Positions 351 to 33,780 of a stretch of DNA of 64,000 bases are shown here, piece after piece. How positions within the stretch are numbered: position 1 is the stretch's first letter; every line of letters starts with the position of its first letter. The notes under the pieces are model-generated. The model ran no database searches and was not told the origin of the DNA. It was given only the letters and a program-made list of their open reading frames with translations. The stretch is from Hydrolagus affinis. Lineage: Eukaryota. The stretch lies in contig JAAILG010000350.1 of NCBI GenBank assembly GCA_012026655.1, positions 1 through 64,000 of the forward strand, read 5' to 3'. The position numbers and the translations under genes are program-made.

Positions 351-478
351 NNNNNNNNNNNNNNNNNNNNNNNNNNNNNNNNNNNNNNNNNNNNNNNNNN
401 NNNNNNNNNNNNNNNNNNNNNNNNNNNNNNNNNNNNNNNNNNNNNNNNNNNNNNNNNNNNNNNNNNNNNNNNNNNNNN
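351..478. other. Assembly gap
   Basis: Run of N. Confidence 1.
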
Positions 479-14717: not shown

Positions 14718-14817
14718 NNNNNNNNNNNNNNNNNNNNNNNNNNNNNNNNNNNNNNNNNNNNNNNNNNNNNNNNNNNNNNNNNNNNNNNNNNNNNNNNNNN
14801 NNNNNNNNNNNNNNNNN
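14718..14817. other. Assembly gap
   Basis: Run of N. Confidence 1.
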
Positions 14818-16983: not shown

Positions 16984-17155
16984 NNNNNNNNNNNNNNNNN
17001 NNNNNNNNNNNNNNNNNNNNNNNNNNNNNNNNNNNNNNNNNNNNNNNNNNNNNNNNNNNNNNNNNNNNNNNNNNNNNNNNNNNNNNNNNNNNNNNNNNNN
17101 NNNNNNNNNNNNNNNNNNNNNNNNNNNNNNNNNNNNNNNNNNNNNNNNNNNNNNN
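16984..17155. other. Assembly gap
   Basis: Run of N. Confidence 1.
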
Positions 17156-26298: not shown

Positions 26299-28595
26299 CA
26301 AATCCACCCACTTCTAATTTTTAAATAATAAAAGCTGTTTAAAACCAACTTAGGTACTTGTCTCCAAAGCAGGAGTCTTCTGCTTCTCTCTCTTCCTTTC
26401 CTCAAGTCCCGAACCCATCAGGCAGTTATTGTTTTTTTTTAAAAAAACACAACTGACGGCTTTTCAGAAGGCATCAGACGGAAAACGGTTTTGTGCGAGT
26501 TTCTGACAAGAGCAGAGTTTGCACAAAAACAGAGCCTGCTCTTTATTTTACTTTTACTGGGCTGGCTGCACAGCTGTGCAGCCCTAAGGGGACGAGTTGT
26601 CGCTCCTGTTTTTATTGAAATATTCCCGTTTCAATTGAAGTATTTTTCCTCTCTTCATTTTGGTTAAAAAAAATGCTTTCCATCTCAGCGCAGTGTGTAA
26701 GTGCTTGCTGGTGGGAGGGAGGCTGGCTCGCAAAGGCATTTTAGGTTTGCAAGTTGTTAAAAAAACAGCGACCCAAACGCCTTGGGATATCCTCCCGATG
26801 TGAAAGGCGTTGTATGAATGCAATTTGTTGTTGTGGTGCAGCAAGTCTAGCTGTTGCCTCCTGGTATCTATTTCAATGCACCCTGTTTGCTCCTTCTCAA
26901 CCATACCAACCTGATGCTGACCGAGCCGTTTGCATATCTCTGGCAGGACAGCATTTCAAACGCTTTTAATGCTTGCGTCTTAATTACTCATGAAGGTTTG
27001 AGAACAATTCCAACGCCTCCTCAATGTTACTCTACCTCTGGCGCACCTTTGTGTGCAACTGCAACAAGTCTCAGGCGTGCTTTTTTTTTATTAAGCGCCA
27101 CCATCTCCTGATAAAAGACAAGGACCGAGAGACGCCTTTTGGAAACAAATAGGTTTTGTAAGTTATTTCAAGAATGAAATCTGCTCTAATAAAAAATGAG
27201 GAAAGAGTGTTATTTTAAAAGTCTGGTTAAGCCACTCCTAAAAAAAAGGGGGGAGGAGGGGGTGAGAATGCAGCTATGTGCAGATCAAAACCAGACCACC
27301 TTTCTGATGTGAAAAAAACAGGAGAAGAATGGCGAGGTAGCGTGCAGCTTGGTCCTTCGCCAGAGGAGCCGGAGAGAGAGAGAGAGAGAGTTCAGACACT
27401 CTGGTCAGTCTCAACTTGTCACAGATCAAAAGGACTGTGTAACCTCCCTCCTTCCCCACCCCTCCCCAAGTTTTGCCTCAAACAGTTACACTCTCAGGGT
27501 TATCGGGGATTGTGAGGCTCGTCAAAAAGCTGACCCTTTGTAAAGTCGAGCGCTTTTACAAGTAAAGAAATCATAAAAGCAGGATTAGAGCAGGTCTTCT
27601 GGTACCCTCTATCCCACAAAATAAATCCAGCATAGCAGCTCCACTGTGGAATGTGGCTCATCTCTACCTCAAGCCTGAGTCATTTACATGTAAACAGACC
27701 AGAGTTTATAGAGGTGAGGGAATGTGAGTTCCAGCTGCCCAGATACCTGCAGCCTCAGGTGATGGCTCAACCCAGACCCACTGCCTCCCCAGTAACGCTG
27801 TTTATCTCACACTCACTTTTACTTAGCAATTATAAAAAAAACATAAACAACTCTCTCTACCACACTCTCCAAAAAAAATACAGATGTCCCAAATGCATCT
27901 TGTGGGCATATGCACAGCACACTGCTGTTGCATATTTTACTGTCATTTTAGAAATTAATGAAAAACAACTTAAGCTAACCTCTTCAGGAATTCCGCAAAA
28001 CACTGTCATTTCATATTGGCAATATATTAAAAAAATTTATACTTAAAAATTCCTGCCCGAGATTTGTGCTTCACTCCCTCTCTTAAAACTACCCGCGTTT
28101 TATTGAGAAATCAGGCATCCACTTTAACTCAGCTTTAGTCCATAGCCCACGAAAGGCACAGACGGCTATCTGATGAGAATGGATTTCACACGGGGTAAAT
28201 AGCGAGCAAACATTCAATTTATAAATATTTATTTTAAAATATCCACAAATGTTAGTTGCTGTTTCTGCTTTTATTTGTAAAGCAATTCAAAAAAATCTCC
28301 ATCAGCTAAGAATTGATTTGACCATCAAGGAAAACACAAAATGATTTACCAGAGTGTGTTTTGAGGCAGCAAGCATATCTCACTATCTCATTGGCATTAC
28401 CAGCAGAGAACCATTTGACCATATTTATTATTTATACTGCATTTATTCATTATTTCACAATATATTTTGTAAATAAAAAGGGATGGTCACAACAAACGCA
28501 AAGACGGACGGAACAATTTTTTCCATTTTTTTCCCTTTCGGAGTGTCCGAGGGTTCCGGGAACTCCAGTCCTCCAGCTGAAGAGGCTACACTCAC

Positions 28596-28678
28596 CTGGG
28601 ATACAACACAGACGGAAAACACACTTGCGGAAATATTCAGCACAGCACATTGCATTAACTCTTCTTAGATTTTAACCC
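28596..28678 (-). other. BNC2: Candidate 83-nt cassette exon of BNC2 (stop-start or poison exon)
   Basis: Acceptor GTCTTTTTTTTTGTAG| and donor CCCAG|GTGAGT, both strong, on the BNC2 strand, in TE-free sequence. Confidence 0.7.
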
Positions 28679-31161
28679 CTACAAAAAAAAAGACACCAAA
28701 TGCATGTCACTGCCATGCAAGACAAACAGAGTGCAATCGACCCAATATTTTTAAACAAAGGACTATAAGCAGCAATTATTTCCCACAGTCACCTTCTCTT
28801 TTGTGCCTGCTGCTCATAGCTGAATTTCCGTCTTCTGAGCTTCAAGTGACAAGTGGTATTTTTAATATGGAAATATGAACAACTTCCCAGCTGTTATTGA
28901 AAATAATATGATTTAATTTAAACACTATAGATTCAGACGACCGAGAACAGATTAACCCGTCGAAGACTCAGTGAGTACCTTTTCTGCCACACCAATTTGG
29001 GGACCAGGACAAGATAACAGAGCTTTGTTTTGTCCCAATGAATACTGCGATCTGACATTGTTTCACAATGCTGAATATTTCTCTAATTGTACTCGGTAAA
29101 ACAATGGCACTCACAGTACGCCGTATTCACGGATATTACACAGGTTAATAGGTGTGCGTGCTTTTGAAAGCTACAAAGGACTCCCACTGCTCAAAAGGTC
29201 TATTCCAAATAAATGATGGTCTGTTTAGTGTTTCTAAATAATTTCCCCCACCAAAAATAATACCCTCCTTACCTATAATCGTTACTGAGGCGAGTGGTGA
29301 GGGCGTTGATTTTAAAAAATATATTCTGCTGCCTTACCAAAAATAAATCTACCTTGAATAACATTCTGTCATTGCACGGTAATCAAATATCAAACTGCAA
29401 TCCTCATCAGTGAGAATGGAACAAATAGCTGATAAAACAAAGACTCCTGCAATGTAACAAACATTCTCTACCTCCTGCCTGCTGTATAAATTTCAGCTGT
29501 AAAATTCCCATTAAGTGAATTTGTTCCTGCTCAATTTGTACTTTTCAACCAGTTTACGGTACAAATTACACAGTCACCTTCTGCAAGTAGCTAGTGCCTG
29601 GCTTCTGTTATTTCAGTCCCATCATCTCCTAAAATCAAAAGTAACAAGCCCAGTGAGTGCTTCGATTTCAAAAGAATCTCCTGTTACAATTTAAGCGGAG
29701 CAAACAGAATTGCTGCTAAAATCTCACGGACATTCCTGCAGCATGCATATTTCCCATGAAAAAAAAATGTAATTATGCGACAAACAAATTCACATCAAAG
29801 GAATTGACTCTCGACGATTAATGAACCCAAACGGCACTCGATCTTTTTTCACTGTTTGACATGTTTAAGCCTGCGTATGCTGAAGAAAGACAACAACGAA
29901 AATGAAACACTCCAGGATTTTGTGGTTCTACTTTAGATCACGGCAGCGAGCTCCACAGGCTTTTAATCCTGACAGCTCTCCGGATAAAGTTACACATTTG
30001 TATTCCCAAATTATGACCCAAATAAAAAAAAATGCAGTATTTATTGATCTGGTTTCATTCGCGATTCTTAAGCAAAGAGGTTATTTTCAGGCACAAACTT
30101 TGCTTATCTAGCCAGATGCAAGTGTGGATGACCCATTTCGATCAACAACCTCATGAAGTACAGAGTATGTGTGTGCTTTTTTTAAAAAAATACATGATGT
30201 TATCAGAGCTTTTCTTTTTTTAAATAATTCTATTCCATTTCAGAAATGAAACCCCACAGCATGTTTCACAAATCTGCATGTGATATCCTTGGATTTTTTA
30301 AAAATTGGTCAGATAAGGAAAGATGCAACACCGTATAAAGGAACAAGTTAAATCTCTTCAAGTATGAGTGCTACAGTGTAAACGGGACCACAAATGTTGC
30401 TCCCACACTCTCCTTATTTTGCACCGTTAGTTTATAATACATTTAGAGTAATGCTCACAAATCGCAGTGACACTTTCACCTCTTTCAGGAACGTATACTG
30501 TGTACGAGAGTCTTTGTACAGTTTAAACCTGCTCCTTTCTAAATGCGCTGTCTGACCCTTGCTGTCTTTCTGGATTAACACTTTGCGCGCTGGCTGGGAC
30601 ATCTCGTTCCCCTCCACCTTGGATTCGCTAGCTGAGGCTGCTCTCCTGATGCAAACTTTTTACTGACTGCGATGAAGAGACTGTGTCACACTGGTGCAAG
30701 GAAAGCTCAGAGCCGGGAGATAGAACAGCACAACACCGAGTGATGCTTTGCTCCAACTGCATCCGTAGAGATGTGCGGGCGGACGGGGTGGATTGTTCTC
30801 CACACTCGCTCTTACTAGTACCCGCTTGTTAAAGTCAAACAGCGCATTGGACGAATAAATCCCCCAAACCGTAAAATACCCCAACAAGAGGCAGAGTGAA
30901 CAGAAAACAGAGGCATTCTACCCAAAGTGCAAACGCCAGCACACTCATGTATGTGCTGTAACCAGGGTCCCCCTACAGGAGATATCGCAATTCACCTGCT
31001 TTAAATAGATACATCCAAAATAGTATCCCGCTCCAAACAATCTATACTGTACATACAGTAAGAAACGGTTAAACATGGGTCTGCAAATTCATTAAACGCC
31101 AGTAAGCAGGGGTTGTAATTTGGTGGAGACTCTGAGAGTGGACTTGACTGTATCAGGGTTA

Positions 31162-32134: not shown

Positions 32135-32230
32135 CTGTTGGGACATTCTGAATAGCAGGTTAGTCTCAGAGTTCTGCCATGTCCCCAGGAAACCAGGCTC
32201 TGTTGACGCTGTTCTTGTTCCAAACTGCAT
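32135..32230 (-). CDS. BNC2: Basonuclin 2, N-terminal coding part of an exon (equivalent to human exon 3)
   Basis: Translates to MQFGTRTASTEPGFLGTWQNSETNLLFRMSQQ, matching recalled human BNC2 MQFGTRTTTAEPGFMGTWQNADTNLLFRMSQQ. Ends exactly at a consensus phase-0 donor CAG|GTGAGT (32135/32134). The upstream in-frame RVRDFTLRDLSTNYS matches human RARDLTLRDSCTDNS. Confidence 0.95.
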
Positions 32231-32365
32231 GGAGTAGTTGGTACTTAAGTCTCTTAAAGTGAAGTCTCTTACTCTGACTCACACACACACTCTCTCTCTC
32301 ACTCGCTCTTTGTTTTCTCTCTCTCTCTCTCACTCACTCACAATCACTTCTGCTGCTTCTCCTGC
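32135..32365 (-). other. BNC2: Probable full extent of the BNC2 exon (231 nt); 5' part likely untranslated
   Basis: Acceptor CCTTTCAG| at 32366, then AGEAAEVIVSE, similar to human SEEAEVDVRE. In-frame TGA at 32332-32330 and 32281-32279. The pyrimidine tract is weak, so the exon could extend further 5' (a stronger acceptor lies at 32739). Confidence 0.65.
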
Positions 32366-33780
32366 CTGAAAGGTGTTGGTCGATTGTTACGTCTCTTGGC
32401 AGTCGACAGTAGGAGTGGAGTTAAGAAGCTGGCTGCACAGTGCTTTCCTTGGGGTCACTGCTCCTTTCGCACCTCCTGAACAGATACCCCGATCATTTAT
32501 GCATAGACTGTGACTCCCCAAGCACGCCCTGTGCAGCTCAGCAGCTGCCAGTCAGGTGTGCAAGTAGCAGTGATGAGATCCAACCATCAGCTCAACTCTC
32601 AGCCACTGGATGTCATTGGATAACAGCACTAGAGTCAAATGCACTAGCCTCGCTGGCAGGCACTGAATGACATCCTGTGGCAACCTCGCACAGACAGACC
32701 AGAAAAAAATACATCCAGCAAACACAGACCTGAACAATCTAGAAATTTAGAAAGCGAGAGACAGAGAGCAAAAGCTGTGGCACTTTCTGATAATCCTCAG
32801 CCTCTTTAGAGCCTGAGAGTGATAATAGAACTCACTCTTTGGCACTGCAAAAAGCACTCGAGTGATGGCTAGGTGTCATTAGTGTACCAATGAGAAATGA
32901 TGAGTAAATGTACACAATAGTGACACAAATGCACATTCCCCTCTCTTGGTCTGTTTGTCTGTCCATCTGATTGTCTGTCTGTCTCTCCCTAAAAGCTTTC
33001 CTACAAACTTTCCCTCAATACACAACACACACACACACGTACTGTACAGTACTTTCAATTTTCTGCCATTAGCAAAAAACACAATGGGAGAATATCAGTA
33101 ATTTAACACACACACACACAGAAAATGTATTATAAAGAATAACGCTGAATTTCACTAGATGAACATCCACCTGAATCCAAAAAAAGGTCCTGTAGGTAGG
33201 TGGAAGTTCTTTTTGTACATGTTGATCAATAGTCCCAATAGTGGCTGCAGTTCCTGAATGCTGCTGCTGCCGCCTGTCCTAACTCCCTTTAAAATTAGCT
33301 AGCCTCTTGATTTCTGAAGTGCCACTCAGTTCTCCAGTCAAGCTGCATACTCTGCTTCTGACCTTCCCACTAATGGCTGTTATTTGTGGGAGGCTAAAGG
33401 ACACTGCCAATAGCGCGCTTTCCCTTTCCACTCTGTCCCGCAGTCCTCCCCACTCCCGGCTCGCTGCCTGCCTGCCTGCCTGCAGCAGCACCAGCACCTG
33501 CAGTNNNNNNNNNNNNNNNNNNNNNNNNNNNNNNNNNNNNNNNNNNNNNNNNNNNNNNNNNNNNNNNNNNNNNNNNNNNNNNNNNNNNNNNNNNNNNNNN
33601 NNNNNNNNNNNNNNNNNNNNNNNNNNNNNNNNNNNNNNNNNNNNNNNNNNNNNNNNNNNNNNNNNNNNNNNNNNNNNNNNNNNNNNNNNNNNGAGGAATG
33701 TGCTCAAAGCGAGCCCAAGTGAGGTGGCATTACCAAACAAAGGGCTAATTTGGAGACCCTGCTGTGAACAATCTGTATTA
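32366..33780 (-). promoter_or_regulatory. Putative internal BNC2 promoter / 5' leader region
   Basis: TE-free sequence directly upstream of the ATG-bearing exon. GC-rich with CpGs and CTG/CAG runs next to the gap at 33505-33692. Possible donor AAG|GTCAGA at 33363. Confidence 0.35.
33505..33692. other. Assembly gap
   Basis: Run of N. Confidence 1.

What the first reader, a model, noticed from the sequence alone, without database searches (positions are those of the whole stretch)
28596..28678. Hidden BNC2 cassette exon with an overlapping stop-start (TAATG) that could swap the N-terminus
Seen: an 83-nt unit with strong splice sites. Spliced after ...MSQQ it reads GGG TTA AAA TCT AAG AAG AGT TAA (GLKSKKS*). 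The last A of that TAA (28655) is the A of an ATG that runs exactly 20 codons (MQCAVLNISASVFSVCVVSQ) to the donor in phase 0, in frame with the next BNC2 exon. Known: UAAUG overlap is the termination-reinitiation signature of influenza B M1/BM2, and short uORFs allow reinitiation. Inferred: inclusion turns the conserved N-terminus into a 39-aa uORF (11 aa if started at MSQQ) and either triggers NMD or restarts BNC2 with a hydrophobic, Cys-containing N-terminus. That would be a splicing-controlled translational switch. Frame restoration alone has about a 1-in-3 chance, so conservation is the key test.
Basis: partly seen in the sequence, partly recalled or inferred. Interest (0 to 1): 0.8.

Follow-up and report, generated by a model that had tools for sequence, protein, structure and literature searches.

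The report
Probable BNC2 stop-codon cassette exon
An 83-base stretch in an intron of the developmental gene BNC2 of a probable cartilaginous fish looks like a real optional exon that would cut the protein short, but its overlapping stop-start signal may well be chance, and that design is already known from the GAD1 gene.

Summary
The sequence description is exact. The 83-nt unit is the best acceptor-donor pair in the window (25.1 bits, next 21.4). Chance gives this in 0 of 300 Markov simulations, or 96 of 3000 shifts in a stricter test. It is probably a real exon (about 0.7).

The stop-start switch is poorly supported:
- An overlap with an open restoring frame arises in 4.5% of exon shuffles, and TAATG/TGATG in 2.7%.
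- There is no TURBS UGGGA within 100 nt upstream, the restart AUG has a poor context, and a better out-of-frame AUG sits 5 nt downstream.
- Long or overlapping uORFs are expected not to allow reinitiation.
- 0 of 135 named BNC2 proteins carry the 20-aa N-terminus.

DNA-level conservation, the key test, could not be run.

Best reading: a minor poison-type cassette exon that lowers BNC2 output (0.5). Even if the switch is real (about 0.07), mouse GAD1 exon 8A (80 nt, TGATG, GAD25/GAD44) already has this architecture. It would be a second case, not a new kind.

The parts
28596..28678 (-). Predicted 83-nt (3n+2) cassette exon of BNC2
   Evidence: Top acceptor-donor pair of 150 in the window, 25.1 bits; nulls
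28679..28700 (-). Polypyrimidine tract (T10) and TAG acceptor
   Evidence: rank 3 of 3931 acceptors
28701..28719 (-). Branch-site-like TGAC (starts 28709) and an RBFOX-type TGCATG (28719; motif name recalled); a 6-bp hairpin is possible but not beyond chance
   Evidence: fold z = -0.60
28653..28657 (-). TAATG: in-frame stop TAA (28657-28655) overlapping the ATG (28655-28653); stop lies 59 nt before the next exon junction
28596..28655 (-). 20-codon open frame from the ATG to the donor, phase 0; weak start context (T-3, C+4)
   Evidence: absent from 135 of 135 named BNC2 proteins
28648..28650 (-). Competing out-of-frame ATG with G at -3, open for 18 codons to the donor
28590..28598 (-). Consensus donor CAG|GTGAGT
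32135..32365 (-). BNC2 exon ending in MSQQ. Coding from the ATG at 32230. Its 5' half is homologous to coding sequence in amniotes but has two in-frame TGA stops here. Phase-0 donor at 32135.
   Evidence: closest match 30 of 32 to Callorhinchus P0026
32166..32180 (-). Out-of-frame 4-codon uORF in strong start context (G-3, G+4) inside the MSQQ exon
32366..32496 (-). Leader upstream of the MSQQ exon, similar to lizard and bird 5' extensions; probably an internal promoter or 5' leader (inferred)
   Evidence: tblastn to P0008, P0010 and P0040

Best explanation
The unit is a real but minor, alternatively spliced cassette exon in the intron after the MSQQ exon of BNC2, in what is probably a cartilaginous fish. 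Normally it is skipped and MSQQ joins the AIRC exon. When included, it adds seven codons and a stop, so the BNC2 start becomes a 39- or 11-codon upstream ORF. Output of full-length BNC2 falls, through NMD (the stop is 59 nt before the next junction) and, because stops close to the start often escape NMD (recalled), through plain translational blocking. Ribosomes that resume scanning would mostly pass the overlapping AUG, which is too close and in poor context. TAATG is then a by-product of an AT-rich sequence. Shown: sequence, phases, splice-site strength, AUG contexts. Inferred: splicing, NMD, regulation.
For: Best splice pair of the window: 0 of 300 Markov simulations and 96 of 3000 shifts reach it. 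Branch-like site and RBFOX-type motif upstream. A stop in the incoming frame is the default for such an exon (85.5% of 20,000 shuffles). No TURBS core, weak AUG context and a competing AUG. Overlapping or long uORFs are non-permissive for reinitiation (PMC5972666). BNC2 is heavily alternatively spliced, with six promoters (PMC13304701 passages). One NMD-inclusion exon of BNC2, in another intron, is catalogued for mouse and human (PMC9882217 supplement).
Against: No transcript shows the exon. The stricter null still gives 1.4-3.2% per window. The one BNC2 entry among 1,937 mouse-human poison exons is an 89-nt exon that I place in the first intron, not this one (placement from its identifier and recalled gene structure). 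None of 22 representatives matching the MSQQ exon shows the 7-residue tail: by the table 2 of 22 have a 7-residue tail, and both read differently. The overlap is a 1-in-20 to 1-in-40 event for this exon, which leaves some room for selection.
Confidence: 0.5

Rival explanations
1. Pseudo-exon: a chance pairing of a T-run acceptor with a consensus donor that is not spliced at a meaningful level.
For: 96 of 3000 sense and 43 of 3000 antisense circular shifts reach the same score. No trace in 135 named proteins, in 41 distinct alternative N-terminal pieces, or in the 22 representatives. The first stage scans many windows, so such pairs will turn up.
Against: Top pair by 3.7 bits; donor identical to the real exon's donor; 0 of 166 antisense pairs reach it; 0 of 300 Markov simulations. 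A poison exon would leave no trace in protein databases anyway.
Confidence: 0.25
2. The ATG at 28655 is used, but independently of the stop. It could serve as the start of an alternative first exon from a nearby promoter, or be reached by leaky scanning or delayed reinitiation after the strong 4-codon uORF at 32180. In the inclusion form that uORF ends 19 nt before the MSQQ AUG and 54 nt before the AUG at 28655, an ATF4-like layout. The product is BNC2 with a new 20-aa N-terminus.
For: Short species-specific N-termini spliced onto the AIRC exon are common among the named proteins (for example P0046, P0049, P0086, P0094, P0103, P0106, P0111, P0121). CpG o/e is 0.62-0.65 over 28-31 kb against a window median of 0.40. 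AUG map.
Against: The strong acceptor argues for an internal exon. The AUG context is weak, with a better out-of-frame AUG 5 nt downstream. An open in-frame ATG arises in 28% of shuffles. The CpG rise is matched at 26, 38, 54 and 58 kb. No homologous N-terminus was found.
Confidence: 0.15
3. GAD1-like splicing-controlled termination-reinitiation, the first reader's switch: ribosomes ending at TAA restart at the overlapping AUG and make BNC2 with a swapped N-terminus.
For: Exact TAATG with an open phase-0 frame; chance 2.7% for this exon and about 0.5% for any-length segments. Same geometry as GAD1 exon 8A (80 nt, also 3n+2, TGATG). Coupled restarts tolerate poor AUG context, and some cellular cases lack a TURBS (PMC5972666).
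Against: No UGGGA within 100 nt and no unusual upstream structure (z = 0.03), whereas GAD has a putative TURBS. The N-terminus is absent from 135 of 135 named BNC2 proteins and was not found in a direct but weak search. Very few cellular cases are known, so the prior is low.
Confidence: 0.07

Closest known systems
GAD1 (GAD67) embryonic exon 8A / I-80 of mouse and rat
   Same: A short 3n+2 cassette exon (80 nt) carrying an overlapping stop-start pentamer; inclusion yields an N-terminal peptide and potentially a restarted downstream protein (PMC4295415 and PMC2629816 passages).
   Different: GAD1 uses TGATG after a long ORF (25 kDa), has a putative TURBS, and both products are reported. Here the upstream ORF is 39 or 11 codons, there is no UGGGA, and neither splicing nor restart is shown.
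Poison (NMD-inclusion) cassette exons, including the catalogued 89-nt BNC2 NMD_in exon
   Same: An optional exon with an in-frame stop more than 50-55 nt before the next junction (59 nt), in a gene with a catalogued case (PMC9882217 supplement).
   Different: The catalogued exon lies in a different intron (inferred). Here the stop is close to the start codon, so NMD may be weak. Conservation is untested.
Influenza B M1/BM2 and calicivirus TURBS termination-reinitiation
   Same: The UAAUG pentamer.
   Different: These need a 45-87-nt TURBS with a UGGGA core (PMC3035654 passages), which is absent here. They act after long ORFs and are not switched by splicing.
SLAMF1 long-isoform uORF4
   Same: A short uORF (29 codons) whose stop overlaps the main AUG by one base (PMC5972666).
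   Different: SLAMF1 has a UGGGA-related sequence, its overlap is with the main start, and the mechanism is unproven there too.

Membership tests
BNC2 locus | Upstream exon encodes the BNC2 segment ending in MSQQ | tested here: met
   28 of 30 candidates are named basonuclin-2; 30 of 32 identical to Callorhinchus P0026
Cassette exon | Branch site, polypyrimidine tract, AG and GT donor at exon-like spacing, stronger than chance | tested here: met
   P about 0.014-0.032 per window in the stricter test
Cassette exon | Included in transcripts | not testable with these tools
   No vertebrate RNA data available
Poison exon (AS-NMD) | In-frame stop more than 50-55 nt upstream of a downstream junction | tested here: met
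   59 nt; threshold recalled
Poison exon (AS-NMD) | Inclusion form is stabilised when UPF1 or translation is blocked | not testable with these tools
   Needs experiment
Poison exon (AS-NMD) | Conserved in orthologous introns | tested here: inconclusive
   Only indirect tests: no entry for this intron in a mouse-human catalogue of 1,937; no matching tail in 22 representatives; no vertebrate genomic DNA could be searched
TURBS-type termination-reinitiation | Overlapping or adjacent stop and start | tested here: met
   TAATG
TURBS-type termination-reinitiation | Motif 1 core UGGGA about 40-90 nt upstream of the stop | tested here: not met
   None within 100 nt of the in-silico spliced leader; only TGGGGA at about -74, within conserved codons; definition
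TURBS-type termination-reinitiation | Motif 2/2* stem presenting motif 1 | tested here: inconclusive
   The 95 nt around and upstream of the stop fold no better than shuffles, z = 0.03
TURBS-type termination-reinitiation | Downstream translation depends on termination at the upstream stop | not testable with these tools
   Needs a reporter assay
GAD1-type bicistronic cassette exon | 3n+2 exon with stop-start and an open frame to the donor | tested here: met
   GAD1 layout
GAD1-type bicistronic cassette exon | Restarted protein is detected or annotated | tested here: inconclusive
   0 of 135 named BNC2 proteins carry it, but only 120 of 787 hits were listed and cluster members could not be read
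Reinitiation-permissive short uORF | Under about 30 codons and not overlapping the next start | tested here: not met
   39 codons (11 from MSQQ) and overlapping; criteria from PMC5972666

The most novel reading that the evidence does not exclude
The exon is a conserved splicing-controlled switch in jawed-vertebrate BNC2. Its inclusion converts the normal start into a uORF, and ribosomes restart at the overlapping AUG without any TURBS. They get there either by termination-coupled reinitiation or, under eIF2-alpha stress, by ATF4-like delayed reinitiation after the strong 4-codon uORF at 32180. This gives a BNC2 isoform with a hydrophobic 20-aa N-terminus in front of the Cys/His domain. It would be a second cellular GAD1-type exon and, as far as my ten searches show, the first proposed in BNC2.
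Probability: 0.07. Interest if true: 0.7.

Novelty: new member of a known kind. Interest (0 to 1): 0.3.

Why it matters
If it is only a poison exon, it adds one more dosage control to a heavily spliced, dosage-sensitive developmental gene, which is of modest interest. If the restart is real, it gives a rare cellular test case for whether stop-start reinitiation can work without a TURBS and after a short ORF. The review PMC5972666 leaves this question open for SLAMF1 and for cellular mRNAs generally. It would also bear on BNC2 isoform function, which a 2026 review calls unresolved.

Tried and rejected
1. Direct protein search for the 20-aa N-terminus, as a 40-aa window stretch against proteins of 71-2000 aa: 0 of 22 candidates scored E<=10. 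This is weak, and excludes only near-identical representatives.
2. Fukomys N-termini (P0103, P0109, P0115), which also contain CVV: rejected. Only 3 of 4 aligned residues match and P is 0.19-0.56 against control windows. The best of 41 pieces had P = 0.02, which does not survive 41 tests.
3. Seven-residue tails in P0151 and P0154: unrelated sequences, one of them intron read-through.
4. The idea, from memory, that the unit is the human ultraconserved element uc.252: the papers link uc.252 (231 nt, chr9) to BNC2 but give no position or sequence. The UCE supplement of PMC9690913 was too large to read. Left untested.
5. Supplements of three exon catalogues held no BNC2 entry (PMC11632617, PMC8091538, PMC12727881), though the files held may be incomplete. 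The CNE supplement of PMC4489388 had only two BNC2 elements, located far from the exon.
6. Vanhoutteghem and Djian 2007, the primary map of human BNC2 exons, is not held, so whether this exon is one of theirs is unknown.
7. A concealed-branch-site hairpin like that of SF3B3 (PMC11162794 abstract): z = -0.60 and +0.61, rejected.
8. A signal-peptide-like N-terminus: hydrophobicity is not beyond composition (12% of 5000 shuffles; 6% of 397 ATG stretches).
9. Rfam, tandem repeats and local repeats show nothing notable at the unit. The bacterial promoter scan does not apply to this genome.
10. Isoforms hidden inside protein clusters could not be listed, so they remain unchecked.

Full report
Observation. 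The unit lies on the minus strand, 28678 to 28596, and is 83 nt long. It follows a T10 tract and TAG and ends CAG|GTGAGT. In phase 0 it reads GLKSKKS and then TAA at 28657-28655. The last A begins an ATG with 60 stop-free bases to the donor.

The gene. The exon ending at 32135 encodes the BNC2 segment that ends in MSQQ: 28 of 30 candidates were named basonuclin-2. The closest peptide is from Callorhinchus, 30 of 32 identical, then Cetorhinus, 29 of 32, so the window is probably from a cartilaginous fish (inference). The 5' half of this exon is coding in amniotes but has two in-frame stops here. Five of the six cartilaginous-fish proteins I printed begin at the Met matching 32230, and the sixth has an alternative N-terminus, so the 39-codon uORF is the right count. 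No other BNC2 coding exon is in the window. The frame claim still holds by arithmetic, because the 32135 donor is phase 0 and MSQQ abuts the AIRC exon in 93 of 135 named proteins.

Is it an exon? With recalled splice-site matrices the acceptor ranks 3 of 3931 and the donor 3 of 3684, the donor being identical to the known exon's. The pair is first of 150 at 25.1 bits, the next being 21.4, and 0 of 166 antisense pairs reach it. Block-wise Markov simulations reached it in 0 of 150 and 0 of 150 runs. A stricter test that keeps the real sites and shifts donors against acceptors gave 96 of 3000 (sense) and 43 of 3000 (antisense). A branch-like TGAC starts at 28709 and an RBFOX-type TGCATG at 28719 (motif name recalled). 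BNC2 is known for six promoters and very many splice forms (PMC13304701, passages). I put the chance that it is spliced at about 0.7.

Is the stop-start more than chance? In 20,000 dinucleotide shuffles of the exon body, 85.5% had an in-frame stop and 28.2% an open ATG in the restoring frame. A stop-start overlap with an open frame arose in 4.5%, and the TAATG/TGATG form in 2.7%. For random 40-250-nt segments the last two figures were 0.95% and 0.47%. In a 3n+2 exon an overlapping AUG always lies in the restoring frame, so overlap and frame are not independent. A 1-in-20 to 1-in-200 event, picked out after the fact and set against a very low prior, gives a posterior of a few percent to about ten (inference).

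Mechanistic tests. Influenza B and calicivirus restarts need an upstream region with a UGGGA core (PMC3035654, passages; PMC5972666, passages). None lies within 100 nt of the stop in the modelled spliced leader, and that region folds like its shuffles (z = 0.03). Ordinary reinitiation needs a uORF under about 30 codons and some distance to the next AUG; overlapping uORFs are expected to be non-permissive (PMC5972666, section 5 part 1 and section 16). The AUG at 28655 has T at -3 and C at +4. An out-of-frame AUG at 28650 has G at -3, and three AUGs precede both in the MSQQ exon. On the other side, coupled restarts tolerate poor contexts and some cellular cases have no TURBS, so the switch is not excluded. 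The peptide's hydrophobicity (GRAVY 1.44) is matched by 12% of 5000 shuffles and 6% of 397 window ATG stretches.

Conservation, indirectly. No vertebrate genomic DNA could be searched. None of 135 named BNC2 proteins carries the 20-aa N-terminus; these come from 28 hits and the best 120 of 787. None of 41 distinct alternative N-terminal pieces matched 28450-28900 beyond chance; the best P was 0.02. The same kind of comparison did detect the conserved leader at 32496-32366, so it can work. A direct search found 0 of 22 candidates (weak). Among 22 representatives matching the MSQQ exon, 2 had a 7-residue tail by the table; 8 were read, including those 2, and none had this tail. A catalogue of 1,937 mouse-human poison exons holds one BNC2 exon of 89 nt (PMC9882217, supplement search and passages). 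I place it in the first intron from its identifier and the recalled gene structure. Three other catalogues' supplements had no BNC2 entry. The primary human exon map (Vanhoutteghem and Djian 2007) is not held and a UCE supplement could not be read; either could bear on this. Isoforms hidden inside protein clusters stayed unchecked. These negatives weigh against a widely used protein isoform and say little about a poison exon.

How it most likely works. Skipping gives normal BNC2. Inclusion turns the start into a 39- or 11-codon uORF ending 59 nt before the next junction. This lowers BNC2 by NMD or, since stops close to the start often escape NMD (recalled), by blocking translation. Any resumed scanning would favour AUGs further on; the first in-frame Met lies 65 residues into the AIRC segment (counted in P0157), past the Cys/His-rich N-terminal domain. 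Confidence 0.5. Rivals: pseudo-exon 0.25; stop-independent use of the AUG 0.15; coupled restart 0.07. The stop-independent rival covers an alternative first exon, which is common in BNC2, and ATF4-like delayed reinitiation after the strong 4-codon uORF at 32180.

Comparison with known systems. Mouse GAD1 exon 8A is an 80-nt cassette with TGATG that yields GAD25 and, by reinitiation, GAD44 (PMC4295415 and PMC2629816, passages; the 1994 primary paper was not read). The proposed switch is therefore a known kind. The unit shares its geometry but fails the TURBS motif test and the permissive-uORF test. It meets the sequence criteria of a poison exon. My ten paper searches showed no description of this exon or of a BNC2 stop-start, but the library lacks most subscription papers. 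Other papers seen: PMC2776513 (passages), PMC6506863 (passages and supplement search), PMC7388226 (passages), PMC4489388 (passages and supplement search), PMC11162794 (abstract).

Verdict. Observation confirmed; interpretation partly supported; probably a new member of the poison-exon kind. Interest 0.3. Novel reading: probability 0.07, interest 0.7 if true.

Noticed in passing
window 32180-32166 (-): An out-of-frame 4-codon uORF in the strongest start context of the MSQQ exon (G-3, G+4), ending 19 nt before the MSQQ AUG. It arises from the T-W codons and a following T-GA junction. The W and the D/E two to four residues on are nearly invariant in the named proteins, so the mini-ORF could be conserved and choose between the two in-frame starts. 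DNA of other species was not available.
   Followed up: partly
window 32365-32231 (-): The 5' half of the MSQQ exon aligns with coding sequence of amniotes and bony fish but has two in-frame TGA stops within GA/GT repeats. It looks like 5' UTR in this lineage.
   Followed up: partly
window 32496-32366 (-): Sequence upstream of the exon matches lizard and bird N-terminal extensions (10 of 11 residues to P0008 and P0010) but is not an open frame here. It is probably a conserved internal promoter or leader that annotation translates in some species.
   Followed up: partly
window 18495-18466 (-): A 30-nt candidate microexon with a strong acceptor (10.8 bits) and AAG|GTGAGT donor, open in phase 0 for 10 codons; it would be a frame-preserving insert after MSQQ.
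   Followed up: no
window 1518-1402, 314-222 and 24231-24205 (-): Further candidate exons in the same intron (117, 93 and 27 nt), each with a stop in phase 0.
   Followed up: no
window 8328, 23299, 24854, 25982, 35270, 51641: Six tRNA-like copies (Rfam RF00005; ARAGORN calls four of them Val or Ala) scattered on both strands, most likely heads of a tRNA-derived SINE.
   Followed up: no
P0024 and P0025 (Petaurus): A different, frame-preserving 27-aa insert between MSQQ and the AIRC exon, showing that this intron hosts cassette exons in other species; no match to the unit.
   Followed up: yes
window 28719-28701 (-): A 6-bp hairpin pairing the TGCATG motif with CATGCA around the branch-like site; not more stable than shuffles.
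   Followed up: yes
window 351-478, 14718-14817, 16984-17155, 33505-33692: Four assembly gaps (588 N in all); none is near the unit.
   Followed up: yes
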